64,000 nt of DNA from contig JBAZYY010000003.1 in assembly GCA_041659065.1 (NCBI GenBank), positions 20,696-84,695 on the forward strand, written 5' to 3'. The first letter of the stretch is position 1; each line of letters begins with the position of its first letter. Below, in pieces: positions 19,999 to 41,621 of this stretch. The notes under the pieces are model-generated. The model searched no databases. It saw only the letters and a program-made list of their open reading frames with translations, and had not been told where the DNA came from. The translations under genes and the position numbers were made by a program. Source of the DNA: Parcubacteria group bacterium (GTDB lineage: Bacteria; Patescibacteriota; Minisyncoccia; Moranbacterales; UBA11712).

Positions 19999-20313
19999 CT
20001 ACGCCAGGGGCTTCGGAGCGCCATGCTTCGGACTACTCTTGCGTCCGAGTAAAAAATCCTTAGCCAAGGCTACTGATAATAAACGCTTATATGCAAATGC
20101 TTTTCCTGAACCAGATTTCAAATATTGCTCAAAATCTCTAGCTTGTTTTTCAGTCTCAAAAGCGGAGTACCAAACCAATCTCCAAGGCAAATGAGGTTTT
20201 GTCGATTTCACATTGCCGGAATTGTGTAATTTTATTCTCTCTTTAAGATTATTTGTTGAACCAAAATAAAATATATGAGATTTTGAGCTAAGTAAAATAT
20301 ATGTATAGTGCAT
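19999..20313 (-). CDS. GIY-YIG nuclease superfamily protein (YhbQ-like)
   Basis: YTYILLSSKSHIFYFGSTNNLKERIKLHN is a GIY-YIG core. The start was set at MHYTYILL; the ORF track extends it to 20358. Confidence 0.7.
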   Translation of the reverse strand: MHYTYILLSSKSHIFYFGSTNNLKERIKLHNSGNVKSTKPHLPWRLVWYSAFETEKQARDFEQYLKSGSGKAFAYKRLLSVALAKDFLLGRKSSPKHGAPKPLA

Positions 20314-20527
20314 AACAAAAACCAAGGCTAATAATAGAATAGTATACCATAGTGGCATGCCATTCCGTAGCCTTGGCGAAGGATGGCTCCCTGAGCCGGT
20401 CTAGAACCGGGGATTATTGACGTTTTCAAGGAGCTTTCGGGGGTTTACGATTTTTGGAAATTTGAAGAGGATCGGTCGCAATTCGAAAAGCAAAATGAGA
20501 CAAATGAGACACGAGACAGCACTTGTC

Positions 20528-21634
20528 TCATTTTGAAGAATGGGACATCTCCCTGTCTCTTTTTTTGAGATCACTTTCAATAAGCTTTCTTAAATTTTCT
20601 TCGCCTTCTACTCCCCTGAGGCGTCCCGTAAGAAATCCCAGGCGATATCTGGCTCCATCGCTCATCAGACGCCAATTCGTGCCTTCTAGAGCTTTCTTGA
20701 AGATTTTTTGAAGCTCGTGGACACTGTCCCATTCGGATCGGCCGGATTTGGAATCTTGCAGGCCAAAGCCCAAAATAACATCTTTTTGAAGTTCAGGTTT
20801 TTCAAATTCTAGTTTAGCGTAACCTGCTTTCTTAAGAATCGGATCAAGGAGTTTTTGAAGCTCTGAAATGGTAAGATTTTTTATATTATCAACGGCTTCA
20901 TAGAGTTCTTTGTTTTCTTCTTTTTCTTTCCAGTCATCCATAAGTTTCCCCATGCTTTCAATCTGACTCATAATCTCGTATCCTTCCTGCTCCGGAAGGC
21001 AGTATTTCTTTCGATTGGCTTCAAAGTCGGGATCAATCTGTTCTTCTTTCTCTTCGGCCAAATCTAGTGTGTCAATTTCTATGTGGCCGCATTGTGGGCA
21101 GGAATATTTTGTAGTAATGATATTATCTTTTCTTCTGCTTTCTGATTGCGCTTCCGCTTTGCATTTTATGCAAATCGGCTTATGCTCCCATTCTTTTCCG
21201 TTTTCCCAATATGCTCGACGCTTACCGCATTTCTTGCACTCAAACATAAAAAGGACTTCCTCTTTTCCTTGATGATTGTTCATAAGATCGCGGGACGTGC
21301 AATTTTTCAAAAGTGAGCTGCAATTGAGGCATCGAACACCTTGAGGTTCCCGGGCATTGGCAATTTTTTCGTCCTTGGCTTGATCTCGCTTCATCCATTC
21401 CTGGATCACTTCCGATTTTTTTGAAGCGTAATCGGCCTTCATAATGTTGAGGACAAGCGGAACAGCCGCTTTTTTGAAGTATTCTTTTTTTATCTTTGCC
21501 AGCTTTTTTTCTTTGCCCTTAAGCTTGGAAATGTCTTTTGGATATTTCGTGTTATCCCAACGTTGGCATTTTTCAATAGTGAGTTTGTCGTAGAGCTCGC
21601 TGTAATAAGTGTGATCTTTGAGATATTGATACAT
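20528..21634 (-). CDS. multi-zinc-ribbon protein of unknown function (368 aa)
   Basis: Several CxxC pairs (CLNCSS...C, FECKKCGKR, CIKCKAE, CPQCGH). It lies 3 bp downstream of the 1220-aa gene, and a hairpin/T-run terminator overlaps its stop. Confidence 0.5.
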   Translation of the reverse strand: MYQYLKDHTYYSELYDKLTIEKCQRWDNTKYPKDISKLKGKEKKLAKIKKEYFKKAAVPLVLNIMKADYASKKSEVIQEWMKRDQAKDEKIANAREPQGVRCLNCSSLLKNCTSRDLMNNHQGKEEVLFMFECKKCGKRRAYWENGKEWEHKPICIKCKAEAQSESRRKDNIITTKYSCPQCGHIEIDTLDLAEEKEEQIDPDFEANRKKYCLPEQEGYEIMSQIESMGKLMDDWKEKEENKELYEAVDNIKNLTISELQKLLDPILKKAGYAKLEFEKPELQKDVILGFGLQDSKSGRSEWDSVHELQKIFKKALEGTNWRLMSDGARYRLGFLTGRLRGVEGEENLRKLIESDLKKRDREMSHSSK

Positions 21635-21637
21635 CTT

Positions 21638-24600
21638 TTATTTCTTATTCAATTCCCAGTATTTGCTAGGATTTCTATCAAAAAGGTTTTTTATAATTTT
21701 CTTGGCATCTTTGTCTGATTTAGATAATTCCTTTACTGCGGATACTATTGCATCTGATTCGTGTAAATCTATTTCGTTGGGAAAAGAAAAAAATATATTT
21801 GCAACTTCCATAAATTTATCTTTTCCCATTTTTTCATTAATAAGCTCCAATATCCTTGAATGATATAATGTGGGATACCATCTCACTTCTGAAAGATTTC
21901 CAGATTTTTTTGTTTCTTCATAGAAAGCGGCTTCATTTTTCAAACATTTAAGAAGCAAGTCGTACCAAGCATCCAGATGTTTATTGGCTTTTTCTTGAAG
22001 TTTTTTTTCTATAGTTTGGTAAACAAGATTATATATATTGTGGGCATACTTATCAGTCATAAAATTGAAATATTCGAGAGCGAGACTTTCATATTCATCA
22101 ATCTTGTTCTCTTTGACTGCAATCTCTCGCATTAGGTGTTCGACAGAGGCAGCAAACTTGAAGCAACTATCGGGATCTTGTTTTTGCATATCCTTTATTA
22201 TTTCTTTTGTTGCTTTTTTGAATTTCTTGTCATTAAATTTATCTGGCCCAAGATCATCATAAAGTACTGGCGAACTAAATCTCCATTTTTTGTAGGCATC
22301 TTTTCTAAATTCAGCAAGATATATAAATAAGGATGCCGCTTCATCAATCGCTTCTATCGGAAGTCTTCTTAAATTGGTAACTAATTTCCATGAATCAGCC
22401 TCATTTAGCGATCTTATTGGGTCAAAAGCATGTAATATACTTTTTGTCATTGCTTTTTGAACATTAACTGGCCATGAAGCAAGCCTGTCCAATAGATCAA
22501 ATGCTATTCTTTCCACTTTCTTTGACATTTTTAATGCTTTCTTTTTATCATCATTAAAGAAAAGGGTATTTCTATCCGAGGGCAAGACAGTCAGCCTGTT
22601 TCTTGCGAGCTGTCCTAGAGCAAAACAAGCCATGTGCGTAACATAGTAATTTTCATCTACAGTAAGTTTTTTCGTCAGATTTATTATTTCGTTAAGTTGC
22701 TTCCGTCCTTCGAGAATTGGGCATTTCATTAATGTCCATCCGCACCATCCTCTAACTGAGGTTATTGTGCTCGGCTCTTCTCCTTGCTCGATTTTTTTAT
22801 GCTCATTATATTTATCTTCTTTATCATTGGGATCTTTACCTGAAAGATATGGATCGGGATCATCAATAAAAACTTTAATAATTCTTATTGCCTTATCTAT
22901 TTGTTTGTGGGCAGCCAGCCTCACTGCAAATTGGACAAATGCATAACGACAACTATCATCAGAAAATCTCTGGTAAATTTTTTTGATATCATCTCCAGTG
23001 GATTTCAGATATGGATCTATAATATCCTTATAAATTTTATTCAAAAATGTTGGGTCGGTAGCTTGATCATTTCCTCTATTATTAAATAGGCTATAAGCAA
23101 AGATTATTTGCTGACTTTTATTTAGTTTTTTCTCTCCTTCTAAATCCCTAAGTATTTTTAGTCCCTTAGTGTAATCTTTATTTAAAATGTCGTGAAGCAG
23201 CCCCGCTACATCATAAGCGCCAAATGTATCTCCTTTTTCTGATTGGACATATTCACTTTTCAAAAAGGATTTAAATAATTCAACAGAAAAATCAATATCG
23301 ACATCCAAAAAAGCTTTGATACTTGAGACGGAGTCAATTTCAAGTAAGCGATGCTTGTAATAGTCCGGGCTAGCAAACCATTTTTTTAGCTCAGCTTTTG
23401 CTTTTGTATGACTATTTTTTGCAAGATTAGTTACGATCTGTTCCACAAAGGGATTTACAGGCACTCCATATTTTTTTGTTGTTAACTCAGCTAGTCTCCA
23501 TTTTTTGTCATCAATTAAATCGCTACCGATAACTGCTTGATAAATCAAATCAGATTTGTGCGGAATACCTCTTCTGGAAAGAATGAGTTCTCTTAAAATT
23601 TCAAACGCTTCTCCAGACGTTTTCTTATCAGCACTGGCATATCTTTTTAATACAATATGATAAACAGAGCGATTAAGAAAATCTGGCCTTCGTTTCGAAA
23701 CTGGTTTTGTAATTACTTTATTTTTTGTTTTTTTATCGGTCTTGCTTAAACATCTTTCTTTGATAAAATTCCAACAGTCCTTTTCATTTTTTGCATAATA
23801 TTTATCAATGGCACAAGTAAATACATTGACAAAGTGACGATCATATACATGATGCGAACCACTGAAAGATATTCCTCCGCCAGAATGTTCCCAGCCATCA
23901 AAGCTTATATTTTTGCTATATGTTTTATAGAACTTATCATACTGATTAACAACTTCCTTAACTAACCTTTCAAAACGATCAAGAAAATATTTCGTCTTGG
24001 CTCCTTTATTAATCCAATCAATAAGAATGTCAAAAACCTCCTTAGGAGAGTAATGGCTGAATTGGCTGTCGTCTTCAACAATATTAAAAACATTTATAAT
24101 CAAACGAATAGTTTTTTCTTCTATATTGGAGCCCCCAATATTATAAATTCTGTGTAATGACTTGCAGATCTCTTCTTTTTCCCATTTTCCATGATCATAG
24201 TCATTGTCTTTGATATAGAAAAATTGCTGACCATCAAACGTCAATAAATCCTTTACAATAATAAATGCATCATCAAGATACCTTTTCCCATTTTTACTAT
24301 CAATAATTTTTGTAAGTATTTTAATAACATCAACATCAAAGAAATCTGAGCGATAAAAACCTCGAATTGTTTTAGTATATTTTTTTATGTACCCAAGTAC
24401 ATATTTTATATTTTTTTCCGTTTGCAGATTATTTTCAAAAACGTCAAAAATACCAAATGTAAAATGATATACCTTATTCAACTGCCATAACTTATCCCAC
24501 TTTTTTAGATCAAGGTCGGTTCGTGTTTTGAGTCTGTCGATGGCAAACGACATTAAATCCCAACGAATAGAGAAAGCGGATATCGAACGGCTACCTAATG

Positions 24601-25300
24601 TAATTTTTCCGTTTCCATTAATAATTTTTTCTAATGCCACAAATTGCTTCTCTCTCTTTATTTTCAGATTAAAATAATCACTACTTGTTTGGATTTCTTT
24701 TTTAAATTTTTCTATTTCTTCAACAATATTCGTTCTATTATATGTCGCTCCACTTGCTGATCCTTTATAAATTTTTTGAATTAAAATATTGTCAACAAAT
24801 CTTTCAATATCCTCCGGTGGAAGCCAAAAATTGATTAGTTCTGCAAATAGAGAATAAATTACATCCTCGTTAAAAGATGCTGGAACTACCCAAAACTGAA
24901 CTTTTGGCAGGAGAGATAATAATTGAGATGAGTAACCCTTTTTAGCAAATTTATTTTGAAGTTGTTCAAAATACTTAACATTGTGAACATTGGAAATTAA
25001 GTCAGTATTCGCTTTACTACATATAATAAGTATTTCATCTTTATCACCTAATGATCCCTTTTTCACAATATTTTCCAACACCTCTTTAAGATGTGGGTAG
25101 CTGAATTTTTCTTTTCTGTCTTTTGATTCGCAAATAATCTTTTTGCCATCGTCAAAAACAAGATTAAAGTCCTCAAAGTTTGTTGCTTCAAGCTGAATAG
25201 ATAAAAATTTTGGATCACGCAGATGCTGAAAAAACAAAGACATTGCAGCCCATGCCTGTGCATTTATTCCTTTATAATTGTATTGTCCTGCTTTACTCAT
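21638..25300 (-). CDS. 1220-aa protein with N-terminal PD-(D/E)xK-like nuclease motif and large alpha-helical body
   Basis: Uninterrupted 3.66-kb ORF. The N-terminus has FEDFNLVFDDG...ICESKDRK (D...ExK arrangement). No Walker A motif is found. It overlaps the upstream AlbA_2 gene by 4 bp. Confidence 0.55.
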   Translation of the reverse strand: MSKAGQYNYKGINAQAWAAMSLFFQHLRDPKFLSIQLEATNFEDFNLVFDDGKKIICESKDRKEKFSYPHLKEVLENIVKKGSLGDKDEILIICSKANTDLISNVHNVKYFEQLQNKFAKKGYSSQLLSLLPKVQFWVVPASFNEDVIYSLFAELINFWLPPEDIERFVDNILIQKIYKGSASGATYNRTNIVEEIEKFKKEIQTSSDYFNLKIKREKQFVALEKIINGNGKITLGSRSISAFSIRWDLMSFAIDRLKTRTDLDLKKWDKLWQLNKVYHFTFGIFDVFENNLQTEKNIKYVLGYIKKYTKTIRGFYRSDFFDVDVIKILTKIIDSKNGKRYLDDAFIIVKDLLTFDGQQFFYIKDNDYDHGKWEKEEICKSLHRIYNIGGSNIEEKTIRLIINVFNIVEDDSQFSHYSPKEVFDILIDWINKGAKTKYFLDRFERLVKEVVNQYDKFYKTYSKNISFDGWEHSGGGISFSGSHHVYDRHFVNVFTCAIDKYYAKNEKDCWNFIKERCLSKTDKKTKNKVITKPVSKRRPDFLNRSVYHIVLKRYASADKKTSGEAFEILRELILSRRGIPHKSDLIYQAVIGSDLIDDKKWRLAELTTKKYGVPVNPFVEQIVTNLAKNSHTKAKAELKKWFASPDYYKHRLLEIDSVSSIKAFLDVDIDFSVELFKSFLKSEYVQSEKGDTFGAYDVAGLLHDILNKDYTKGLKILRDLEGEKKLNKSQQIIFAYSLFNNRGNDQATDPTFLNKIYKDIIDPYLKSTGDDIKKIYQRFSDDSCRYAFVQFAVRLAAHKQIDKAIRIIKVFIDDPDPYLSGKDPNDKEDKYNEHKKIEQGEEPSTITSVRGWCGWTLMKCPILEGRKQLNEIINLTKKLTVDENYYVTHMACFALGQLARNRLTVLPSDRNTLFFNDDKKKALKMSKKVERIAFDLLDRLASWPVNVQKAMTKSILHAFDPIRSLNEADSWKLVTNLRRLPIEAIDEAASLFIYLAEFRKDAYKKWRFSSPVLYDDLGPDKFNDKKFKKATKEIIKDMQKQDPDSCFKFAASVEHLMREIAVKENKIDEYESLALEYFNFMTDKYAHNIYNLVYQTIEKKLQEKANKHLDAWYDLLLKCLKNEAAFYEETKKSGNLSEVRWYPTLYHSRILELINEKMGKDKFMEVANIFFSFPNEIDLHESDAIVSAVKELSKSDKDAKKIIKNLFDRNPSKYWELNKK

Positions 25301-26118
25301 GTTTGATGGGCTTGTTCATATTTAGTCAGAAAGTCTGTTATTTTGCTTGCCAATTGGTTGCAATCCTCAAGAACACTTGAATTATCAAGCACACCTAGAT
25401 TATCTCCATTAGTAATGCCAACCGCTTGTTTCTTTTTTATACCTTCATAAAGATTTGCAATTTCAGTAAGTGAGCAGGAAAGGGCCATAAATTCTGGATT
25501 TCTACCCAAACTGCGATCTTCCAAATATCCTTTCAGGGATTTTAAATATAAGACATCTATATGGTCTGGATTAAACCTAGCATTATTTATTTTAGTGAGA
25601 TCTCGCTGAAGATCGCCAATGTTTTTGGGATCGAATTTATTTATTAAAAACTTTTCTCTAATTTCGTTTCCGTCATGAATTGGAATATTTTCTCCATTAC
25701 CTCTCTTGTATATTTTATGTTCTGTAATATGCGGCCTCACAAAATATGGTGAAGGAAATATATAGACACAATACACAAATAGCATTCTTTTCCTTGGAAT
25801 TTTAAAAGTTTTTATATCCCACCCATTGTCAGATATGGCTGGTAGAATATTAGCATTAATAATACGACTTATTTTTGTCCTTAAGTCAGTCACCTTACCA
25901 ACGCCAATAATATTTTTCGAATCGTCAACTCCAAAAATAATTATGCCTCCATTAGTATTGGCATAAGCGCAGAAAGTATTTCTTATTCTTTGATTTTCTA
26001 AGTTAATTATTTTTTTCCATTCATGCCACCAACATTCTTGACTATCTAGATCCCTTAACCAAGATTGAAAATCATCGAATTCCCAAGTTGTTATTTTTTT
26101 CCAATCCATTTTATTCAA
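25297..26118 (-). CDS. AlbA_2 (Schlafen-like / divergent AAA-4) domain protein
   Basis: FCAYANTNGGIIIFGVDDSKNIIGVGKV matches the AlbA_2 putative DNA-binding domain core. It starts 57 bp after the hsdR stop on the same strand. Confidence 0.6.
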   Translation of the reverse strand: MNKMDWKKITTWEFDDFQSWLRDLDSQECWWHEWKKIINLENQRIRNTFCAYANTNGGIIIFGVDDSKNIIGVGKVTDLRTKISRIINANILPAISDNGWDIKTFKIPRKRMLFVYCVYIFPSPYFVRPHITEHKIYKRGNGENIPIHDGNEIREKFLINKFDPKNIGDLQRDLTKINNARFNPDHIDVLYLKSLKGYLEDRSLGRNPEFMALSCSLTEIANLYEGIKKKQAVGITNGDNLGVLDNSSVLEDCNQLASKITDFLTKYEQAHQT

Positions 26119-26175: not shown

Positions 26176-29100
26176 TTACTCTCCGCTCCAATCTTTACAC
26201 AAAACCTCGGCCTGCTCTAAAACGGTTTTGGTTGCAAGCTCTTGTTTGTCCGGCGGATATTTATATTTATTAAGCAGTTTCTTCACATACACTCGAAGCT
26301 TCGCCCGGACGCTTTCTTTGAGCGTCCAATCGATTGTGGTATTTTTGCGGAGCATGGCTACCAGTTCTTGAGCGATTTTCCGTAACGTCTCGTCGCCGAG
26401 TTCCCTAACTGCGCTTTCGTTGTCGCAAAGAGCATCATAGAAAGCCACTTCATCCTCGGTGAGATTCAATTCACCGCCCCGATCTTTTTCTTCTCTTATT
26501 TTTTTCGCCAGTTCCACCAGTTCGGCAATCACTTGAGCCGCTTCGATTGTTTGGTTCTGATATTTCCTGATCGTTTCCTCAAGCATTTTGGCGAACGAGC
26601 GGGATTTGACCAAAAACTTTCTCTGCATCGTCAAAATCTCGTCATTGAGAAGTTTTTTGAGAAGTTCGAGGGCGACATTCTTATGTTCCAGCTCTTTTAC
26701 TTCCTGCAAAAATTCATCCGACAAAACCGAAACATTCGGAGTTTTTAGTCCAGCGGCATCAAAAATATTCACGACCTCATCTGAAACTACCGCGTTGGAA
26801 ACAATTTGCTTTATTGCTTGATCATAATCATCCTGTGTTGGTCCGCCTTGTCCTCCGCTTTGATCAAGTTTAATAATAATCGCCCGCACGGCTTGAAAAA
26901 ACGCCACTTCATCCCGAATCTTCAAGGCTTCGTCGCTGGGAACCGACAGCGAGAAAGCATAGGATAATTCGGTCACAGACTGCAAATATCTTTTCTTGCC
27001 GTCTTCCAATCCCAAAATATAGTCCGTGGCGCCAGAGATAACTCTTGTTTTATCGGCGGCCTTGTCGCTGAAATATAGAGCGTAATCAAATTTGTGATAC
27101 ATGTCTTTGACTATCTCGTATTTCTCAAGCATCACGGCGATCGCTTCTTCTTGCGGAATGGTCGGCTGTTCTTTTCCTTCCTTGGTATAATTTGCCAAAG
27201 CTTCTTTGAGCGAGGGAGCAATACCGAGATAATCAACAATCAGCCCGCCCGGCTTGTCTTTGTAGACCCGGTTTACTCGGGCAATAGTTTGCATCAAGCC
27301 ATGCCCCTTCATCGGCTTATCAATATACATCGTGTGGAGCGACGGGGCGTCAAAACCCGTGAGCCACATATCCCGAACAATCACGAATTTCAATTCGTCT
27401 TTCGGATCTTTCATGCGGCTTGCCAGAAGCTCCCGTTCATCTTTCGTGTGAATATGCTTTTGAAAATTGGCCGGATCGCTGGCCGAACCCGTCATTACAA
27501 CCTTGATAAACCCTTTGTTGATATCATCGCTATGCCAGTTCGGACGAAGCTTCACAATTTCCTCATAAAGTTCCACGGCGATTCTGCGACTCATCGCCAC
27601 AAACATTCCCTTGCCCTCCATAGCGTCAAGTCTGGCCTCGAAATGATCAACGACATCTTTAGCGATAAGCTTGATACGTTTCTCCGATCCGACCATCGCT
27701 TCAAGGCGCGCCCACTTGCTTTTGAGTTGTTCTTTTCTGGAAACCTCCTCGCCCTCCGTGAGTTCTTCAAATTCAGTATCAATTTTCGGGGTCTCTGATT
27801 TGAGGAGCTGAATTTTCGCCAGTCGTGCTTCATAATATATCGGCACGGTGGCATGATCTTCGACGGCTCGCGAAATATCATACACATCAACATATTCGCC
27901 AAATACCGCCCGTGTGTTTTTGTCAGTGAGCTCAATCGGCGTTCCCGTGAATCCGATGAATGAGGCGTTTGGCAAAGCGTCGTGCATATGACGAGCAAAA
28001 CCGTCAATGAAATCATACTGACTTCGGTGGGCTTCATCGGCGATCACCACAATATTTCGTCTGTCAGATAAAAGCTGGTGTTGATCGTTCTTATTTTCCG
28101 GAAAAAACTTTTGAATCGTGGTAAACACAACACCCCCCGAAGCAACGCTGAGCAAATCTTTCAAATCCGAACGATCCTTTGCTTGAACAGGAGTTTGGCG
28201 GAGGATCTCATCGCATCCGGAAAAGACTCCGAAAAGCTGATCATCCAAATCGTTGCGATCAGTAAGAATCACAAGTGTCGGGTTATCCAAAACTTGAATT
28301 ATTTTCCCGGCGTAAAAAACCATTGTAAGAGATTTTCCCGATCCTTGCGTGTGCCAAACCACTCCGCATCGGCGATCTCCCGATTCCCGTGTGGCTTCAA
28401 GAGTTTTCACAACCGCTTTGTTGGTCGCGTGATATTGGTGATAAGCCGCCAGTTTTTTGATAGTATTTTTCCCGTCAGATTCGAAGACAACAAAATTGCG
28501 AATAATATCGAGGAAATGTTCTTTAGCAAATATGCCTCTGATCAGCACTTCCATTTCTGGAATGGAGGCTGGAGCCACAGTTTCGCCGTCAATCGTCCGC
28601 CATTTCATGAATCGTTCAAGATCAGCCGAAAGCGTTCCGACTCGCGCGTCTATACCGTCACTAATGACGCAAAACGAGTTATATGCAAAAAGTGAAGTAA
28701 TTTGCGCTTTGTAGGTTTGAATCTGATTGAAAGCGTTTTTGACCGTGGCGTTGGTGTCAGCCGGATTTTTGAGTTCAAAAACAGCCAGAGGCAGGCCGTT
28801 CACAAAAATGACGACATCCGGACGGCGATTGTGATTGTTTTCAATAACAGTATACTGATTGACCGCCAGCCAATCATTTTGATCTATATTTTTGGAATCG
28901 ATCAGATAAACTTTGTCACCCGCGATTGTTCCGTCGGTTCGACGATATTCCACATCCACACCTTCAACTAGCATTTTGTGAAAAGAATGATTGGTTTCCA
29001 AAAGGCTGGGGTTGGAATATGCGACATTGATTACTTTTTTAATGGCATCTTCTTGAGCTTCACTGGGAATTGTCGGATTTATTTTTGCCACAGCTGATCG

Positions 29101-29256
29101 CAAATGCTCAACCAAAACAATGTCCTTGTATGATTGCCGTTCCGGCGATTCACCATCAAAAGCGATATTGGGACCGAAAACAATCGAATAGCCAAGTTCC
29201 TCAAGCCATTCGAGGGCTGCGTTTTCCAAGTCTGATTCGGTGTATTTGTTTGTCAT
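26176..29256 (-). CDS. hsdR: type I restriction enzyme R subunit
   Basis: N-terminal HsdR_N nuclease region, SF2 helicase motifs ([11 protein letters not shown] = motif I; [10 protein letters not shown] = DEAH box), and a C-terminal HsdR-specific domain. Length is 1026 aa. Confidence 0.9.
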
Positions 29257-29258
29257 AG

Positions 29259-30164
29259 TTATATTTTTATAATTTTATCTTCCGTTGCCCTGTATTGTTC
29301 AAAGAATGGAAATGTTTTTTCTGAAAGCGGACTCGATGCAAGTGGATTATGCATCAAAACGCACTCACCGCCCATTTTTTCTCGACAACTCAAAACGGCA
29401 TCTTTGGAATAGATTACCGCACTTATTCCAGCATGTTTTGGATCTTGAAAAAAATCCATCGGCACAGGGCTCCCATTTTTTTTCGGAACTTCTTTTCGTA
29501 TTGACCAAAATGGCTTATCAAATTTACTATCTCCTTTTTTCTCTCCAGCTTTTAAAATACGGAATGTCTGGTATCCGATGCTAAACAGAACCTTGAGAAT
29601 AAGTGGTATTCCAGTATCAACATGATCCAGTGATGCTCTGTTGACGGCAATTATGAATATATCGTCTTTTTTGACTATTCCATCGGAAACATATTTTTGG
29701 TAAACCCTAAGCTTTTCATTTAATGAGTTCCTTAGACGAAATAACATTTGTTTTTCTGGGACATCTTGCAAAACACCGTATTGCACATCTGGCACATAAT
29801 TTTCACTGTCCTTGCTGCCTTTTTGCGGTGCTACGCATTCAATCCAAATCGTTTTGCCGCTTGTAACTAATTTGATGTCCGGACCGCTATCGCTCGATGA
29901 TATTTCAAAACCTTTCCCGAGAAGAACGCAAGCAAGATACATCTCCCAAGTCCTTTGATGAAAATTGCTTTTCACATCTATCAAAAAATTGCTATCTTTA
30001 TGCGGTTCAAATTGTTTATACATTTCATCAAAAAACTTCTTCCTGTCTGGAATAGATCCACTAGCAATATACCAACCATCGTAATTCGAATATTGCTTTT
30101 GCAAGCGCGCTAATTCCTCATTATTTTTTGTAACTGGAAAATTGTCGGTAAATAAACTTGGCAT
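29259..30164 (-). CDS. hypothetical protein embedded in the type I R-M operon (301 aa)
   Basis: The ORF stop abuts the hsdR start (2-bp gap). A possible nuclease-like D...E..K pattern is weak. Confidence 0.45.
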
Positions 30165-30184
30165 GTTATCTTACTCTTATTTTT

Positions 30185-30649
30185 CTACTTATAAACATTA
30201 GCGATAGACACATCAATAGTTTTCATTATTTTTGCATTAGCAGGAATAATATAGTTCATAGATAATTCATTTATAAGTTCGATTTGCTTTTTTGATTTTT
30301 CAATATTTCTTTTTTTAACATTTTTTATGCAAATATCTGGATTATTTTCAAAACAATGCCATTGAATTTCAACAGAATTTGAAAAATAAATTTTTACAAA
30401 ATCTTTTAAATCTTCCTGTTTATTTTTTTGGGAAAACCTAACATCTGCAATAACACAATTTTCTCTATTACCCAGCCTTTTGATAAGTTCGTCTTTAAAT
30501 TTACTATGCTTCATATCGCCTATATTATCTACGGCTTCCGCAAAAATATCATCAAAGGCATAAAAACCAAGCGGCTCCAACTTATTTTTCATGTAATAAG
30601 ATTTTCCTGAACCCGGCGAACCAATCACAACTATTAATATTGTTTTCAT
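30185..30649 (-). CDS. small P-loop NTPase/kinase-like protein
   Basis: Walker A VIGSPGSGKSYY at the N-terminus, 154 aa. It overlaps the hsdS end by 4 bp. Confidence 0.6.
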   Translation of the reverse strand: MKTILIVVIGSPGSGKSYYMKNKLEPLGFYAFDDIFAEAVDNIGDMKHSKFKDELIKRLGNRENCVIADVRFSQKNKQEDLKDFVKIYFSNSVEIQWHCFENNPDICIKNVKKRNIEKSKKQIELINELSMNYIIPANAKIMKTIDVSIANVYK

Positions 30650-31899
30650 AATTTTATTTTTACTCTTATTTTTCCACTCATCAGTCGAGGCAACAGAGAA
30701 TCTCGAATTAAAATCAATTCTTCATTTTCTTGACCATTTTTCTTAATCTTTTCAAAGAGTGGGCTGACGGTTGTTTCGTATTTTTTGATTAAATCTAAAT
30801 CTGGAAACGGAAATGATACTTGTGCAAAAGTTGAAATAGTTATAGTTGAAAACACTGAACCATGCGCCTTTTGTTTCAATTCCTCGGCAGTCATTTTTGT
30901 TAGTTCATAGACAAAATATGGATCGGTATCGTCTTTTCCCCTTAGTGCATAGCATGATTGATTCATTGCCATCGGCACTCCAGCCATCGCAACTTTTCCT
31001 ACTGTGCCACGAGCAGTAATAAATGTTGTATCTATTGGATAGAGCGGACTATTACAACTTTTCAATCCATCCTGTGTAATGTATTTTTCAGTTCCCAATA
31101 CATACACAGAGTCGTCAGCGTCTTTCGGTGTGAAAAAAGGAATATTACCGTTCCAATATTGATATGCGTTTGTTTTTGGAGTGCCGCCACTCATCACTTC
31201 GACAACATCAGTAAATTTAGCAACTTTCCATTCTTCCAGCAGCCTATCGCCAATATCAACAAACCACTTTTTGAAAAGAATGGATGCTATTTTTTCTAGG
31301 TTGGCATTGATTTTACGATTAAGTTCTATTTTATCGTCGAGTGAGGAAATAATTTCGGCGATTTGTTTTTGTTCCTCAATTGTCGGCCGAATTATTTTAA
31401 GATTCTTTAAATCCCTGATTGGTAGTTGCGGTTGTGCTGATCCAGTGGTTAATTCGACAATTTGTTTTTTTGTAATCCAACTTTTCAATAATTGAAATAA
31501 GTATTTTGAATCAAAATCCTTATTGTTTCTCAAAATAACCATTCCGGAATTAATCCTCATATTTTCAAAGGGTATAGTCTCATCATAAAAGGCAACATTT
31601 CCCACAGTTCCTCTCGTTGTTAACACAAAATCACCTTTCTGCATTTTGCCTTTTCGTAGCTCCGCATCTTTTGACTGTGAAATAAATTGACTATTCGAGA
31701 AATTGAAACTATCGCCACAAACATTTTTTGCATTAAGAAATAAGCAGTAATCTTTATCAGAAAAATCTGACCCATGAGGATAGTTTGACCCCCGATCCCC
31801 ATCAATTATATTTAGAGCCTCATTAATATTAACAATATCCCATTCTTCTGGAATGATCCCAATTTCTGTTTCTTTAAATTTTGTTTCAACTATTTTCAT
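30646..31899 (-). CDS. hsdS: type I restriction-modification specificity subunit
   Basis: Two target-recognition domains separated by and ending with the conserved coiled-coil repeats (LPIRDLKNLKIIRPTIEEQKQIAEII / LLPRLMSGKIRV). Confidence 0.85.
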   Translation of the reverse strand: MKIVETKFKETEIGIIPEEWDIVNINEALNIIDGDRGSNYPHGSDFSDKDYCLFLNAKNVCGDSFNFSNSQFISQSKDAELRKGKMQKGDFVLTTRGTVGNVAFYDETIPFENMRINSGMVILRNNKDFDSKYLFQLLKSWITKKQIVELTTGSAQPQLPIRDLKNLKIIRPTIEEQKQIAEIISSLDDKIELNRKINANLEKIASILFKKWFVDIGDRLLEEWKVAKFTDVVEVMSGGTPKTNAYQYWNGNIPFFTPKDADDSVYVLGTEKYITQDGLKSCNSPLYPIDTTFITARGTVGKVAMAGVPMAMNQSCYALRGKDDTDPYFVYELTKMTAEELKQKAHGSVFSTITISTFAQVSFPFPDLDLIKKYETTVSPLFEKIKKNGQENEELILIRDSLLPRLMSGKIRVKIKL

Positions 31900-31900
31900 G

Positions 31901-32653
31901 CTATTTTCTGTTGATCAAGTCGTAAGCCAAGCTGGCCAGCGCGATATAATGAACTGCTAAATTTTTATCCAGATCTTGAGCTGGGGTATGAGCCTTCTCG
32001 TTTCTCAAAAATTGAATTGCCATATGTAAAAACTTGATGCCCTCAAAAAAATCTTTCTCGGCATCATTCAAGGGTTGATGACCAAAAATTTTTTCATAAT
32101 TTGAATTACTGAAAGCATCAGTGGCTTTTTCCTTACCCGACACATCTTTCAATTTTTTTCTGACAACCTTATACGCTTCTTCGACAGCATTGAAGCAGTG
32201 ACCGTCATTTAATAATTTTTGCACATGATCAAAAATATCTTTTTGCAGAAGAATGTTAATGTTGCCGTTCTGAAAAGTGGCTTGGGATTTATTTTCCTTT
32301 TCTTCTATTTTTACACCTAATAACCTCTTGCTAACTTTTTCGCCCGCGTCAATTATTTCTTTTGGAAAATCTTCTCTTTTCAGATTGTCGATAAGTATCT
32401 GATTCTCGATATATTCGATAAGCTTGGCGATGCTTTTGCCAATAAGTTTGTCGTCAGCGGTTAGCCACAGACCACGCAAACGATTAGCCTTTGATCCGCT
32501 ACCATACATATATTTTTTGTTGTAGATGTCGATGCCAACGTCGTCCCTGAAAAACTCGCCCATAGTTCGGTCGGAAAAATTCAAAACATAACCACCACCC
32601 ATCTGGAACAGTTTCTCAAGGAGTTGTTTTTCATTTGTGGTTAAGTTTGCCAT
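31901..32653 (-). CDS. TIGR02391-family protein (HEPN-like, R-M-locus associated)
   Basis: The C-terminal region has GHCFNAVEEAYKVVRKK ... FLRNEKAHT (Rx4-6H HEPN motif), characteristic of the ymh family found between hsdM and hsdS. Confidence 0.65.
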   Translation of the reverse strand: MANLTTNEKQLLEKLFQMGGGYVLNFSDRTMGEFFRDDVGIDIYNKKYMYGSGSKANRLRGLWLTADDKLIGKSIAKLIEYIENQILIDNLKREDFPKEIIDAGEKVSKRLLGVKIEEKENKSQATFQNGNINILLQKDIFDHVQKLLNDGHCFNAVEEAYKVVRKKLKDVSGKEKATDAFSNSNYEKIFGHQPLNDAEKDFFEGIKFLHMAIQFLRNEKAHTPAQDLDKNLAVHYIALASLAYDLINRK

Positions 32654-32655
32654 AG

Positions 32656-34206
32656 TTATTCCAAATTAAACCCGATACTTTTCAGATTTCTTCTTATTCT
32701 TTCCTCTAATTCTCCCGACTGTTTGAATTGCTTGGAAAGCTCGCTAGTCAGTCTTTTCATTTTTTCCTCAAAAACTTCGTCATCCTCTTCCACAAAATCC
32801 GTTCCGACATATCGGCCGGGAGTCAAAACAAAACCGTTCTTTTCAACTTCTTCAATTTTTGCCGCTTTGCAAAAACCTTTTACATCTTCATATTTCCCAT
32901 CTCTATTTCTCCAGCTATGATAAACACTGGAAATTTTTTGAACATCTTCACTCGTGAGCTCTCGGTTCTTTCTGGTGACCATCGTTCCCATTTTTCGGGA
33001 ATCAATGAACAAAATCTCATCTTGCCGATCTCTGAATTTATGATTATGTCGATCTCGGGAAACAAACCAAAGGCACGCTGGAATCTGTGTTGTATAAAAA
33101 AGCTGCGGTGGCATCGCCACAATGCAATCCACCAATCCGTTTTGAATGAGGTTTTTTCTAATTTCCCCCTCGCCTGAAGTATTCGATGAAAGCGAACCAT
33201 TCGCCAAAACAAATCCAGCAATTCCGGCCGGAGTCAAGTGATGGATCATATGCTGAATCCATGCGTAGTTCGCATTGCCAGCTGGAGGCACGCCATATTT
33301 CCAGCGGATGTCATCTTTGAGCCTCTCGCCACCCCAGTCGCTGATGTTAAACGGCGGATTTGCCAAAATAAAATCCGCTTTCAAATCTTTGTGTAGATCA
33401 TTATGAAAAGTATCGGCGTTATGCGTTCCGATGTTACCCTCAATCCCACGGATGGCGAGATTCATTTTGCAAAGCCGCCAAGTGGTCGGGTTCGATTCTT
33501 GTCCATAAACAGCAATATCATTTTTATTTCCTCCGTGAGCTTCAACAAATTTTTCACTTTGAACAAACATGCCACCACTTCCGCAGCAGGGATCATATAT
33601 GCGTCCCTTGTACGGTTCGAGCATTTCAACTAAGAGTTTGACCACCGATTGAGGAGTGAAAAATTCGCCCCCGCCTTTTCCTTCGGCAGATGCGAATCGT
33701 CCAAGAAAATATTCATAGACCCGTCCGAGAATATCTTTACTTCGGCTTTCTTTGTCTCCAAGGCCAATTGTGCTTACCATATCAATGAGTTCACCGAGAC
33801 GAACTTTGTCTAGATCGGGACGGGCATAGTTTTTGGAAAGCACGCCTTTGAGGCTCGGGTTGTCTTTTTCGATGGCCACCATGGCGTCGTCAAGCATCTT
33901 TCCAATCTCCGGTTTTTTGGCGTTTGCTTTCAAAAATTCCCAACGAGCCTCCTGTGGAACCCAAAATACGCCTTCGCCAACATAAGCATCGCGATCTTCT
34001 TCCTGACCTTCATAATGATCGGGATCATTTTTGATTTGAGTGTGCACTTCCTCAAACGAATCGGAAATGTATTTGAGAAATATCAAACCAAGCACCACGT
34101 GCTTATATTCAGCTGGATCCATATTGTTTCGCATCTTGTCCGCGGCTGCCCAAAGTGTTTCCTCGAAGCCAACATTTGTGCCATTAGATTTTTTATTTTT
34201 TGCCAT
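32656..34206 (-). CDS. hsdM: type I restriction-modification DNA methyltransferase M subunit
   Basis: N6-adenine MTase motif [11 protein letters not shown]; motif [10 protein letters not shown]; N-terminal HsdM_N. Confidence 0.9.
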
Positions 34207-34428: not shown

Positions 34429-35274
34429 ATGAAAAAACCCATAAGTAAAGGCAAAAAGAACAATTACCGCAGAGGCCGTTTTTCGAAAAAAAGCGAGCCT
34501 CAATTTTCATATTCATCACACAAAAAGAACATAGACAATGTGAAGTTGCTGTTTTCCTATAGCTTGTTTCGGAAGGAGATAAAAACAATTAGAGATTACC
34601 TAAAAATACCAAAGGATGGATTAAAAGATGAAGATTCAAAGAAATGGCATTTAGATAGAGACAAGGAATCAAATGAAATTATGGAATCTGAACGATTTTT
34701 GCTTCAAGGGGAAAGAATTTGTCAAAAAATTATACTAGGAGAAATTAGTCTTGCGATGGGCAATAAGCAAGCTCGTCTTCTGCTCAATAAGATGCCTTGG
34801 AATTATTTATCAAATTCAGTTAATTTCTTGATTGAAAAGTTTCATGTTCCGCTTAATTATGAGCAGACCATAAGGCGCTACATCCTTTTTAACAAGATTG
34901 TGTTCGTTCCAGCTCAAAATTTCGTTGTCGGCGGATTTGACGGTAGCTTTCGGATTAAGGACGCCAGATTTTTACCAATAAGAATTTATGCCAAGCTGAC
35001 AGATGAGGATATCGAAGAAATAAAAGATACGATTGAAAGATTCGGTAAAAATCTTCCTAATTTTCAACCGCTTAAGGATATTGATAAGCGATTGACCATT
35101 GAAGAATGGGTTAGGAGTAGAGGAAAAATTGATCCGCTGACTGGGAATGAATATCAAATGACAGTAGAGGAAATCGCGGAAAATATTTACGGCAATAAGA
35201 AACAAAAAAATAAGGTCAGAGATAATCAACGTAAATTGGATGAGATAAGAAAAAAGAGGTTCGGAAAATTGTAG
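34429..35274 (+). CDS. hypothetical protein (281 aa)
   Basis: ORF only; basic N-terminus. Confidence 0.45.
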   Translation: MKKPISKGKKNNYRRGRFSKKSEPQFSYSSHKKNIDNVKLLFSYSLFRKEIKTIRDYLKIPKDGLKDEDSKKWHLDRDKESNEIMESERFLLQGERICQKIILGEISLAMGNKQARLLLNKMPWNYLSNSVNFLIEKFHVPLNYEQTIRRYILFNKIVFVPAQNFVVGGFDGSFRIKDARFLPIRIYAKLTDEDIEEIKDTIERFGKNLPNFQPLKDIDKRLTIEEWVRSRGKIDPLTGNEYQMTVEEIAENIYGNKKQKNKVRDNQRKLDEIRKKRFGKL

Positions 35275-35383
35275 GTTATAATTTTCCGAGGGCTAGTAGC
35301 ATTGCATGATTTAATAGACACAGTTAGCTGTGTCTATTTTTTTATCGAAAAAAGACACGGTAATAATTATTAAGTAAAAATCT

Positions 35384-36733: not shown

Positions 36734-36871
36734 AAAAGCAACATCACAAAAAAAGCCTTTCTGGAGCACCTTCGTAAAATTCCAATTATACAAGTAAGTT
36801 GCGAAAAAACCGGCATCGCAAGATGCACGATCTATCGTTGGAAAAAAGAAAGCAAGAAATTCGCCAAAGAA

Positions 36872-37120
36872 ATGGAGAATGCATTGGCTGAGGGAGAAGC
36901 CCTGATAAACGACATGAGCGAATCCCAGCTAATATCGCTCATTAAGGACAAGAATTTCAGCGCCATAAGATTCTGGCTCAAAAATCGTCACGAAAAATTC
37001 CGTGAGCGATTTGAAGTAACGACTAATTTACAAGGACAAGAAGAATTGACCAAAGAACAAAAAAACGTTGTCCGGGAAGCTCTCCGCCTAGCATCACTCG
37101 GCAATAAAAAGAAGAAATAA
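36872..37120 (+). CDS. terminase small subunit-like HTH protein (annotated from first ATG; ORF likely begins upstream at a non-ATG codon)
   Basis: The open frame extends back to 36734 (ITKKAFLEHLRKIPIIQVSCEKTGIARCTIYRWKK...) with an HTH, then AIRFWLKNRHEKFRERF resembling terminase small-subunit C-terminal motifs. It lies directly upstream of TerL. Confidence 0.4.
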   Translation: MENALAEGEALINDMSESQLISLIKDKNFSAIRFWLKNRHEKFRERFEVTTNLQGQEELTKEQKNVVREALRLASLGNKKKK

Positions 37121-37138
37121 CTATTAAAATTTAATTCC

Positions 37139-38587: not shown

Positions 38588-38626
38588 TAGGCGTTTTTCA
38601 AGGCTTTTCGGGGTCTGGACAAAGGT

Positions 38627-40012: not shown

Positions 40013-40234
40013 TAAATCAGCAGAGAAGCAGTATAGTGATATTAACAATTTAGCCTAAACTCACGCCTTCTGGTGTGAGCATGGCGCATAAAACCTAGCT
40101 AATAGAGACGGCCTCATGGTCGACACTTATTAGCTAGGTCGGTGTTCCGAAAGGGCATCGGGCAATCCGAAAGGGTTGTCGTCGTACTGTGGGGCCTTTT
40201 GTGTACCCACAAAATAAATCCTAGCTAAAAAATC

Positions 40235-41471: not shown

Positions 41472-41621
41472 ATATCTTGATGGCGATAGGACTGGAACCG
41501 AATTAATGGCTTGAATAAAGTAAATCGATTTTTTTATGGCGACCGGACGTTGTGAAGCTATGGCCTAAAATAGCTTGTATATAGTAAAAAGGATCGGTCT
41601 CTCGATAAAAAAATGTAGCTG

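What the first reader, a model, noticed from the sequence alone, without database searches (positions are those of the whole stretch)
20528..26118. Candidate uncharacterised three-gene defence module (AlbA_2/Schlafen-like + 1220-aa PD-(D/E)xK-headed giant + multi-zinc-ribbon protein) fused to the end of a type I R-M operon
Three minus-strand genes are packed with 4-bp and 3-bp junctions: 25297..26118, 21638..25300 and 20528..21634. They start 57 bp after hsdR on the same strand and end at a bidirectional hairpin terminator (~20503..20533). The first gene has the AlbA_2 core (FCAYANTNGGIIIFGVDD). The 1220-aa protein has an N-terminal D...ExK arrangement (FDDG...ICESK), no Walker motif, and >1000 aa of helical sequence that I cannot assign to any family. 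The third gene has at least three CxxC zinc knuckles. Their location inside a tRNA-integrated island, beside hsdRMS and a HEPN gene, is the classic context of anti-phage systems. I do not recognise this gene combination as a named system.
Basis: partly seen in the sequence, partly recalled or inferred. Interest (0 to 1): 0.8.

Follow-up and report, generated by a model that had tools for sequence, protein, structure and literature searches.

The report
Two-gene nuclease-plus-solenoid defence candidate
The three genes are real, but only two of them (a small Schlafen-type RNase and a 1220-residue protein made of a Cap4-type DNA nuclease head on a very long helical repeat body) form a conserved, unnamed cassette that rides behind restriction-modification genes in candidate-phyla bacteria and is most likely a new anti-phage system.

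Summary
The three minus-strand ORFs, their 4-bp and 3-bp junctions, the 57-bp gap after hsdR and the terminal hairpin are all confirmed. The "three-gene module" reading is only partly right.

The giant belongs to a small family: 467 representative clusters at E<=1e-3, mostly Patescibacteria. In 64 of 68 loci it is preceded by a tightly coupled small gene. That partner swaps between at least five unrelated families, even among closely related giants:
- AlbA_2/Schlafen, as in this window
- two Cap4-like nuclease families
- a family of about 190 aa
- a family of about 370 aa

The zinc-ribbon gene (g3) is found near only 2 of 44 other giants. It occurs without the giant at the end of the same small mobile-element backbone, so it is a neighbour and not a component.

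About two thirds of loci carry R-M genes of several types directly upstream. PADLOC, Pfam, NCBIfam and PHROGs name no system.

Best reading: an unnamed two-gene defence cassette in which a sensor solenoid controls nucleases.

The parts
25297..26118 (-). g1: the exchangeable partner gene, here a Schlafen/AlbA_2-type predicted RNase. The domain spans residues 31-146 and is followed by a C-terminal region of about 120 aa that Pfam does not assign. The likely true start is the ATG at 26109.
   Evidence: - Pfam SLFN_AlbA_2, E = 6.4e-19.
- The family profile hits rat Slfn13 and human SLFN5/11/12/14 over the catalytic segment.
- E28-x4-E33-x-K35 has the same spacing as the CbCash catalytic triad E17/D22/K24.
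- Across 22 partners: E28 in 21/21, [DE]33 in 21/21 and K35 in 17/22.
- The 4-bp overlap with the giant is shown.
- A 100%-identical 270-aa protein, P0241, supports the ATG start.
24686..25300 (-). Giant, residues 1-~205: a Cap4-type PD-(D/E)xK nuclease head.
   Evidence: - AF2 domain model, pLDDT 81.
- G11, Q15, Q25, E38, D44 and E58 are invariant in 88 relatives; K60 is present in 87 of 88.
21638..24685 (-). Giant, residues ~206-1220: a HEAT/ARM-like alpha-solenoid body, the inferred sensor and scaffold.
   Evidence: - The AF2 full-length model (pLDDT 88.5) is all helices after residue 205.
- Foldseek against PDB returns only generic solenoids (CAND1, importins, RRP12) with TM of about 0.2.
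- The PDB sequence profile search returns only alphaRep.
- Invariant patches include RPDFLNR (P539, D540, R544), GIPHK (P580, K582), DPDP (D814, P817), SVRGW (R850) and R999.
20528..21634 (-). g3: a two-zinc-ribbon protein with a conserved C-terminal domain. It is probably co-transcribed with the cassette but is not part of it. It is likely the terminal backbone gene of the mobile element.
   Evidence: - Conserved cysteines at C102/C105, C133/C136, C155/C158 and C179/C182 (C136 >=90%, the others invariant) and the motif 'TNWRLMSDG..YRLGFL.GRLRGVEGEE'.
- 336 homologs, many without a giant nearby.
- Found with only 2 of 44 other giants.
- No Pfam hit above the curated cut-off (only weak zinc-ribbon matches, E about 0.01) and no PADLOC, PHROG or PDB match.
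20491..20535 (-). Terminator-like hairpin closing the operon.
   Evidence: - Inverted repeat of 16 nt, 94% complementary, with a 13-nt loop (I23).
- RNA fold of -20.3 kcal/mol, z = -5.8.
- Also picked up by the terminator scan.
26176..34206 (-). Upstream type I R-M operon. It is context, but a recurrent one. Gene order: hsdM 32656..34206, Hypoth_Ymh 31901..32653, hsdS 30646..31899, AAA_33-like 30185..30649, a 301-aa ORF 29259..30164, and hsdR 26176..29256.
   Evidence: - Pfam assignments for these genes are, and phrog_8571 for the 301-aa ORF.
- R-M or methyltransferase genes lie within 4.5 kb upstream, mostly on the same strand, in about 37 of 57 related loci.

Best explanation
The functional unit is a two-gene cassette, g1 plus the giant. 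It is an unnamed anti-phage (or anti-mobile-element) system that was inserted behind a type I R-M operon inside a small integrative element of a Patescibacteria genome.

What is shown:
- The giant is a Cap4-type DNA nuclease head with an intact D...ExK site, joined to a ~1000-residue HEAT/ARM-like solenoid with no NTPase.
- A small gene is translationally coupled upstream in almost every relative.
- That gene is swapped among unrelated families, most of them nuclease-like, while the giant stays conserved.
- One partner family also occurs fused to the solenoid in place of the head, and headless solenoids have a separate Cap4-like gene.

What is inferred:
- The solenoid is the sensor and scaffold. 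By analogy with the HEAT domain of DSR2 and the repeat arms of Avs proteins, it binds an infection cue, most likely a phage protein.
- Binding releases or assembles the nuclease modules docked at its N-terminal end.
- The Cap4-type head then cuts DNA.
- The partner adds a second activity. In this window that is a Schlafen-type endoribonuclease with the E-E-K triad, predicted to cut tRNA and stop translation (abortive infection).

g3 is a neighbour: the last gene of the element's cargo operon, not a component of the system.
For: - Family and coupling: there are 146 full-length homologs of conserved length (~1200 aa). In 64 of 68 loci an upstream ORF is coupled, mostly through -4 or -8 bp overlaps.
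- Partner diversity: AlbA_2 in 23 loci, a Cap4-like family of ~300 aa in 19, a ~190-aa family in 16, a family with a Pfam Cap4_nuclease hit in 9, and a ~370-aa family in 4.
- Partner exchange among close giants: the window has AlbA_2, a 91%-identical giant has the ~370-aa family, and 75%-identical giants have the ~190-aa family. Window g1 is 76-77% identical to partners whose giants are only 62-64% identical.
- Body: solenoid with no NTPase.
- Fusion evidence: the head of P0320 belongs to the ~300-aa partner family (hhalign probability 100%, E = 9e-43).
- Headless variants: proteins of ~950-1020 aa exist, and in L093 one is preceded by a separate 248-aa Cap4-like gene.
- Schlafen triad in g1.
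- Neighbourhood: 82 upstream ORFs are dominated by Eco57I/N6_Mtase/TaqI_C/MmeI, HsdM/R, type ISP and ResIII domains. Also nearby are a KAP NTPase, SIR2, NERD, OLD-family genes, and Shedu in the equivalent slot.
- g1 and the giant share GC 0.32, distinct from both flanks.
- Architectural precedent: DSR2 is a SIR2 effector plus a HEAT sensor that binds a phage tail tube protein (PMC11263360).
Against: - There is no experimental evidence. Defence is inferred from domains and context only.
- The Pfam Cap4_nuclease model does not hit the head, and hhalign against a Cap4-like partner family is weak (E = 0.0018). The head assignment therefore rests on a predicted structure.
- Some loci sit in plain housekeeping context, for example the Deltaproteobacteria loci L003/L004.
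- In the AlbA_2 partners a third acidic residue (D65/D66), which aligns with D248 of rat Slfn13, is present in only about half of members.
- No shared docking domain was detected between partner families.
- Partner genes are truncated in a few loci (L002, L064), so the giant may work alone or those copies may be decaying.
- The trigger is unknown.
- No homolog was found on viral contigs, which neither helps nor hurts.
Confidence: 0.55

Rival explanations
1. R-M guard. The cassette is a second-line system tied to the neighbouring restriction enzyme. The solenoid monitors the R-M complex or binds phage anti-restriction proteins (DNA mimics such as Ocr or ArdA) and fires its nucleases when restriction is blocked. 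This would be analogous to PrrC with EcoprrI, or to PARIS with Ocr.
For: - The cassette lies immediately 3' of R-M genes on the same strand in this window and in about 37 of 57 related loci. Those R-M systems span at least four types: I, IIG/L (Eco57I/MmeI-like), ISP and III.
- The guard concept is established for PrrC and PARIS (papers listed; mechanism from my own knowledge).
Against: - R-M genes are the commonest inhabitants of defence islands, so adjacency alone is weak evidence.
- The upstream R-M types are unrelated to each other, which makes a specific protein-protein guard unlikely, although sensing a generic DNA mimic remains possible.
- Some loci have no R-M gene nearby (L003, L005, L006).
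Confidence: 0.18
2. Direct restriction-like nuclease. The solenoid binds nucleic acid itself, and the head plus partner cut foreign DNA or RNA directly, like a type IV or otherwise unusual restriction enzyme. There would be no protein sensing and no abortive infection.
For: - The partner families are nuclease or nucleic-acid-binding folds: Cap4-like, a weak Mrr_cat hint (E = 0.08), and AlbA_2.
- HEAT-like repeats can bind DNA, as in the AlkD family (my own knowledge).
Against: - The best structural matches are conditionally activated effector nucleases, not restriction enzymes.
- An always-active DNase without a cognate methylase would be self-toxic.
- The Schlafen partner points to RNA or tRNA as a target.
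Confidence: 0.12
3. A true three-gene system including g3.
For: - There is a 3-bp spacer between the giant and g3, and one terminator after g3.
- g3 also lies downstream of giants in L001/L013 and L027.
Against: - g3 is absent from 42 of 44 other giant loci with enough downstream sequence.
- In the two positive loci another gene intervenes.
- g3 occurs without the giant next to the same ParB-MTase/TerL backbone.
- Its GC content differs from that of the cassette.
Confidence: 0.05
4. Not host defence. The cassette is an addiction or competition module of the mobile element. It either kills cells that lose the element after segregation or acts against rival elements.
For: - The cassette is cargo of a small element with a serine recombinase, TerL and a ParB-methylase, here and in L001, L007, L009, L038 and L057.
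- The cassette shows rapid exchange of its partner gene.
Against: - There is no antitoxin-like small gene.
- Many copies are not on this backbone.
- Defence cargo on such elements is the norm, for example Shedu in the same slot in L011.
Confidence: 0.1

Closest known systems
DSR2 (defence-associated sirtuin 2)
   Same: - A single large protein with an N-terminal effector domain followed by a long helical/HEAT-repeat body.
- That body forms a cavity which binds a phage protein.
- It has no NTPase (PMC11263360).
   Different: - The effector here is a Cap4-type nuclease, not a SIR2 NADase.
- There is no detectable sequence relation: the PDB profile search found only alphaRep, and DSR2 is not among the top 50 Foldseek matches.
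- This system has an obligatory, exchangeable second gene.
Avs3 and other Avs/STAND pattern-recognition receptors
   Same: - A C-terminal repeat sensor.
- Modular swapping of effector heads.
   Different: - There is no STAND NTPase domain anywhere in the model.
- The repeats are HEAT/ARM-like rather than TPR.
- It is a two-gene unit.
CBASS Cap4, Hachiman HamA and Lamassu LmuA effector nucleases
   Same: - A GxxxQ ... D ... ExK signature.
- LmuA-type effectors are likewise exchanged around a conserved core.
   Different: - There is no SAVED/CARF domain, no HamB helicase and no LmuB SMC partner.
- SMC_N is found in only 2 of the 82 upstream neighbours.
Prokaryotic Schlafen nucleases (Cash; R-M-associated Schlafen 'Cluster 4' of PMC13462974)
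   Same: - g1 has the AlbA_2/Schlafen domain with an E-x4-[DE]-x-K catalytic motif.
- It has a C-terminal region of unknown function.
- It sits next to an R-M system.
   Different: - There is no Csx15/CARF-like sensor and no CRISPR link.
- Here the Schlafen gene is just one of several alternative partners of the giant, which that paper does not describe in the passages I searched.
PrrC/EcoprrI and PARIS (guards of restriction)
   Same: - A nuclease toxin genetically linked to R-M.
- tRNA is the likely target of the partner.
   Different: - There is no ABC ATPase or HEPN anticodon nuclease architecture.
- No trigger has been demonstrated.
- The resemblance is one of context only.

Membership tests
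Schlafen / AlbA_2 (PF04326), for g1 | Domain match above the curated threshold | tested here: met
   69.1 bits against a cut-off of 25.3, E = 6.4e-19, residues 31-146. The family profile hits Slfn13 and SLFN5/11/12/14 in PDB.
Schlafen / AlbA_2 (PF04326), for g1 | Catalytic E-[D/E]-K triad of active Schlafen RNases (CbCash E17/D22/K24) | tested here: met
   g1 has E28, E33 and K35 at the same spacing. They are conserved in 21/21, 21/21 and 17/22 partners.
Schlafen / AlbA_2 (PF04326), for g1 | tRNA/rRNA endonuclease activity | not testable with these tools
   Needs biochemistry.
Cap4-type nuclease (PF14130 / DUF4297), for the giant's head | Sequence-profile match to the family | tested here: not met
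   No Cap4_nuclease hit at E <= 1. hhalign against a Cap4-like partner family gives only E = 0.0018, probability 15%.
Cap4-type nuclease (PF14130 / DUF4297), for the giant's head | Fold and catalytic D...(E/Q)xK signature | tested here: met
   [not shown]
CBASS Cap4 effector | C-terminal SAVED/CARF nucleotide-sensor domain and a CD-NTase in the operon | tested here: not met
   The remainder of the protein is all-helical. None of the ten ORFs scanned between 16.7 and 34.2 kb is a CD-NTase.
Avs / STAND NTPase receptors | Central STAND P-loop NTPase domain | tested here: not met
   There is no P-loop Pfam hit. There is no alpha/beta NTPase fold in a model with pLDDT 88.5.
DSR2 | N-terminal SIR2 NADase domain | tested here: not met
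   The head is a PD-(D/E)xK nuclease. A SIR2_2 gene occurs only as a separate downstream neighbour in one locus, L006.
DSR2 | HEAT-repeat C-terminal sensor homologous to that of DSR2 | tested here: inconclusive
   [not shown]
Lamassu / Hachiman | Core partner: LmuB SMC-like ATPase (+LmuC), or HamB helicase | tested here: not met
   Neither is next to the giant in this window. SMC_N occurs in 2 of the 82 upstream ORFs and is not coupled to the giant.
Any PADLOC-DB v2.0.0 system | Profile match of the component proteins | tested here: not met
   - The giant and g3 have no hits.
- g1 has only a weak hit to the Schlafen region of a pAgo model.
- 18 diverse giants give no consistent hit.
- Newer DefenseFinder models could not be searched.
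Type I restriction-modification (context genes) | HsdM, HsdS and HsdR domain sets | tested here: met
   N6_Mtase + HsdM_N; Methylase_S; HSDR_N + SWI2_SNF2 + T1RH-like_C, with E-values from 1e-28 to 1e-129.

The most novel reading that the evidence does not exclude
The cassette is a portable 'restriction guard'. It is an NTPase-free solenoid receptor that has been bolted onto R-M operons of at least four unrelated types. It detects phage anti-restriction factors, or failure of restriction, and answers with a two-nuclease response: a Cap4-type DNase plus an exchangeable second nuclease, here a Schlafen tRNase. It would be a general mechanism by which genome-reduced candidate-phyla bacteria, which mostly lack CRISPR, back up their R-M systems.
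Probability: 0.15. Interest if true: 0.8.

Novelty: new variant of a known kind. Interest (0 to 1): 0.6.

Why it matters
- If it is confirmed as a defence system, it adds a receptor class built like DSR2 or Avs but with no NTPase and no SIR2. Its effector part is split into a fixed Cap4-type head and a freely exchangeable second gene.
- The natural variants (partner in trans, partner fused, headless body) give a ready-made genetic dissection of how a helical sensor controls nucleases.
- It is concentrated in Patescibacteria, whose immune repertoire is poorly known and cannot be screened by culture.
- Its strong linkage to R-M genes of several types makes the 'guard of restriction' idea directly testable.
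- It also provides a bacterial context in which a Schlafen-type RNase is controlled by a separate large partner protein.

Tried and rejected
- Sequence libraries (Pfam, NCBIfam, PADLOC, PHROGs) gave nothing for the giant and g3 beyond weak zinc-ribbon and MMS19/HEAT hints.
- The PDB sequence profile search for the giant, g3 and three partner families gave nothing significant.
- Foldseek with the full-length model returned only generic solenoids, so I modelled the head alone. That was the informative step.
- The viral-contig scan found no relatives.
- A genome-contig scan with a single sequence found only two close relatives. The metagenome scan with the alignment was what gave the 79 loci.
- The first representative search failed because the profile had more than 1200 positions. 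I re-ran it with shorter members.
- I looked for a docking domain shared by the partner families with hhalign. AlbA_2 against the ~300-aa family gave nothing. P0304-type heads against the ~190-aa family also gave nothing.
- I looked for att-like repeats around the island and found none convincing.
- I considered a STAND/Avs reading and rejected it, because there is no NTPase.
- I considered BREX PglX for the large Eco57I-like neighbours. I did not adopt it, because no PglZ appears in the top-25 family list of the census.
- I first concluded there was no tRNA in the window. That was wrong, because the tRNA is interrupted by an intron.


Full report
**1. Observation**

g1 overlaps the giant by 4 bp. 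The giant stop and the g3 start are 3 bp apart.

hsdR (26176..29256; HSDR_N, SWI2_SNF2, T1RH-like_C) ends 57 bp upstream of the TTG. A 100%-identical database protein has 270 aa and starts at MDWKK. The real start is therefore probably the ATG at 26109.

A strong hairpin follows g3. Its arms are at 20491-20506 and 20520-20535, with a fold energy of -20.3 kcal/mol and z = -5.8.

The operon upstream is hsdM, a Hypoth_Ymh gene, hsdS, an AAA_33-like gene, a 301-aa ORF and hsdR.

**2. The three proteins**

*g1.* It is a bona fide AlbA_2/Schlafen protein (Pfam E = 6.4e-19). A profile of 22 such partners hits rat Slfn13 and human SLFN5/11/12/14 over the catalytic segment. g1 carries E28-x4-E33-x-K35. 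This is the same spacing as the experimentally defined E17/D22/K24 triad of the bacterial Schlafen tRNase CbCash (PMC13462974). These positions are conserved in 21/21, 21/21 and 17/22 partners.

*The giant.* It has no Pfam, NCBIfam, PADLOC or PHROG family. With 88 homologs, AlphaFold gives a confident model (pLDDT 88.5). It has an alpha/beta domain up to about residue 205 and then only helices. Foldseek finds just generic HEAT/ARM solenoids.

Ordinary restriction enzymes score below 8. G11, Q15, Q25, E38, D44 and E58 are invariant in 88 relatives, and K60 is present in 87. There is no NTPase fold.

*g3.* It has two zinc ribbons (eight conserved cysteines, seven of them invariant) and a conserved C-terminal domain. 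It matches nothing known.

**3. What is conserved**

The giant family is small. There are 146 hits in the word-indexed search and 467 representative clusters at E <= 1e-3 among 1.84 billion. It is found mostly in Patescibacteria, with a few members in Deltaproteobacteria and Margulisbacteria.

I collected 12 loci by exact look-up and 79 from a metagenome scan.

*The upstream partner.* In 64 of 68 non-redundant loci with upstream sequence, a same-strand ORF of 150 aa or more is coupled to the giant's start. The gap is -4 bp in 27 loci, -8 bp in 11, and otherwise mostly within a few bases. Two of the four exceptions carry remnants of partner C-termini.

These partners fall into at least five families that BLAST cannot connect:
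- AlbA_2: 23 loci
- a ~300-aa family with GxxYQ...D...ExK: 19 loci
- a ~190-aa family: 16 loci
- a family with a Pfam Cap4_nuclease hit: 9 loci
- a ~370-aa family: 4 loci

Partner type changes among close giants. The window has AlbA_2, a 91%-identical giant has the ~370-aa family, and 75%-identical giants have the ~190-aa family. Window g1 is 76-77% identical to partners whose giants are only 62-64% identical. The partner is therefore an exchangeable cassette.

*The downstream gene.* Downstream genes are mostly singletons. g3 homologs accompany only 2 of 44 other giants, and in both cases another gene lies in between. The g3 family is larger (336 hits). It also occurs after a Shedu gene, after an FtsK-like gene, or alone. 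g1 and the giant share GC 0.32, against 0.41 for g3 and 0.45 for hsdR.

The conserved unit is therefore two genes, not three.

**4. Architectural variants**

The exhaustive profile search shows three kinds of variant.

- Headless proteins of about 950-1020 aa match from profile position ~220 onward. In L093/L094 such a protein is preceded by one 248-aa gene with a Cap4-like signature (GFLFED...DFAIL...YQVK). hhalign against the Cap4-like partners gives E = 4e-4. A type III res gene lies further upstream.
- P0320 has, in place of the head, a domain that belongs to the ~300-aa partner family (hhalign probability 100%, E = 9e-43). In its locus there is no tightly coupled upstream gene.
- P0304 and P0315 carry yet other heads (sequences). 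No Pfam family matches the P0304 head.

The small partners and the head are thus interchangeable modules that sit at the N-terminal end of the same solenoid. This is Rosetta-stone-type evidence that the partners work physically with the giant.

**5. Context**

I scanned 82 ORFs of 200 aa or more lying within 4.5 kb upstream of the partner in 48 metagenome loci. The domain counts were:

| Pfam domain | ORFs |
|---|---|
| Eco57I | 21 |
| N6_Mtase | 19 |
| TaqI_C | 17 |
| MmeI_Mtase | 12 |
| N6_N4_Mtase | 5 |
| HsdM_N | 4 |
| Type_ISP_C | 3 |
| ResIII | 3 |
| EcoEI_R_C | 3 |

HpaII, DpnII, HSDR_N and OLD/AAA_15 also occur. By locus, about 37 of 57 have a methyltransferase or R-M gene upstream. 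Other neighbours include a KAP NTPase, SIR2, NERD and PD-(D/E)xK genes.

In the window the cassette is cargo of a small element. Its backbone recurs in L001, L007, L009, L011, L012, L027, L038 and L057 with different cargo. The backbone consists of:
- a 281-aa ORF
- a ParB-methyltransferase
- an 82-aa ORF
- a large terminase
- a large serine recombinase (the whole backbone spans 34429..40012)

Beyond the recombinase lie a LOOT RNA, a NucS-like gene and a tRNA gene split by a group I intron at 41621..41930. Default ARAGORN missed this tRNA.

**6. Mechanism**

*Shown.* There is a conserved nuclease-plus-solenoid protein with an intact catalytic site. It has an obligatory, exchangeable partner that is usually nuclease-like. 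The partner can fuse to the body or split from it. The cassette is linked to R-M genes and other defence genes, and is carried on a mobile element.

*Inferred.* The solenoid senses an infection cue and controls the nuclease modules at its N-terminal end. The precedents are DSR2, a SIR2 effector plus a HEAT sensor that binds a tail tube protein (PMC11263360), and Avs proteins. In this window the outputs would be DNA cleavage by the Cap4-type head and tRNA cleavage by the Schlafen partner, giving abortive infection.

I put 0.55 on this overall reading. The main alternative concerns the trigger: a guard of restriction that senses anti-restriction factors (0.18). Other rivals are a direct restriction-like enzyme (0.12), an element addiction or competition module (0.10), and the original three-gene idea (0.05).

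**7. Comparison and novelty**

The cassette works like DSR2 or Avs but is a member of neither. SIR2 is absent. The NTPase is absent. There is no sequence relation to solved DSR2 chains. It shares its nuclease fold with Cap4, HamA and LmuA but lacks SAVED, HamB and LmuB.

PADLOC v2.0.0 has no model for it. Six full-text searches found no description of it. A 2026 survey notes R-M-associated Schlafens with unknown C-terminal domains but, in the passages I searched, not the giant.

I could not search current DefenseFinder models or AFDB. I therefore rate it a new variant of a known kind (an effector-plus-repeat-sensor defence protein). Interest is 0.6.

Noticed in passing
window 34429..40012 (+), and L001, L007, L009, L011, L012, L027, L038, L057: A compact mobile-element backbone recurs in other Patescibacteria loci with different defence cargo beside it, for example Shedu SduA_C in L011 and no cargo in L012. 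It consists of a 281-aa ORF, a ParB_N+N6_N4 methyltransferase, an 82-aa ORF (possibly a small terminase), a large terminase (phrog_38) and a large serine recombinase. g3 homologs mark the far end of the cargo slot. It looks like a satellite-like or cryptic-prophage defence-carrying element of candidate-phyla bacteria.
   Followed up: partly
window 41621..41930 (-): A tRNA gene is interrupted in the anticodon loop by a 237-nt group I intron (Rfam RF00028, 78.7 bits, at 41667..41907). ARAGORN finds it only when introns are allowed. It calls the gene tRNA-Thr(tgt), but the anticodon is uncertain. It lies about 1.6 kb beyond the recombinase end of the island.
   Followed up: partly
window 40052..40180 (+): A LOOT RNA motif (Rfam RF03000, 69.7 bits, E = 5e-11) lies 40 bp after the stop of the large serine recombinase. 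It may be linked to the element's end or to its regulation.
   Followed up: no
window 29259..32653 (-): The type I R-M operon has three extra genes embedded in it: Hypoth_Ymh (HEPN-related) between hsdM and hsdS, and a 154-aa AAA_33 kinase-like gene (GC 0.275) plus a 301-aa ORF (phrog_8571) between hsdS and hsdR. These are possible further R-M-linked accessory defence genes.
   Followed up: no
window 19999..20384: A small GIY-YIG gene (119 aa, 19999..20358) is largely bracketed by a 21-nt inverted repeat (20056-20076 and 20364-20384, 90% complementary), directly after the island's terminator. A 56%-identical GIY-YIG segment (79 aa aligned) lies about 5 kb downstream of a g3 homolog in L010.
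   Followed up: no
L002 3853..3981; L064 4874..5008: Short ORFs that overlap the giant's start are remnants of partner C-termini. L002 matches the ~190-aa family and L064 matches AlbA_2. The partner gene was therefore truncated in these loci, apparently by insertion of R-M genes, leaving the giant alone.
   Followed up: partly
window 20528..21634 (-) and P0121-P0240: g3 defines a sizeable family of its own, restricted to candidate-phyla bacteria (at least 336 hits, 48-86% identity). It has two zinc ribbons and an invariant C-terminal motif (TNWRLMSDG..YRLGFL.GRL). No structure or function is known.
   Followed up: partly
L006 9609..10601; L095 4857..5528; L059/L068/L071 downstream ORFs: Some giants have additional effector-like genes immediately downstream: SIR2_2 overlapping the giant's stop, a NERD gene, or ~695-aa AlbA_2-containing proteins. 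This suggests further optional modules.
   Followed up: no
P0308, P0323 (representative search): Two giant relatives carry an extra N-terminal segment of about 70 aa before the nuclease head. By eye it looks like an XRE-type helix-turn-helix. This was not tested with a profile.
   Followed up: no
window 40235..41164 (+): A 309-aa protein with a NucS_C/YhcG/PDDEXK_4-like nuclease C-terminal half and a phrog_10226 N-terminal half sits between the LOOT RNA and the intron-containing tRNA.
   Followed up: no
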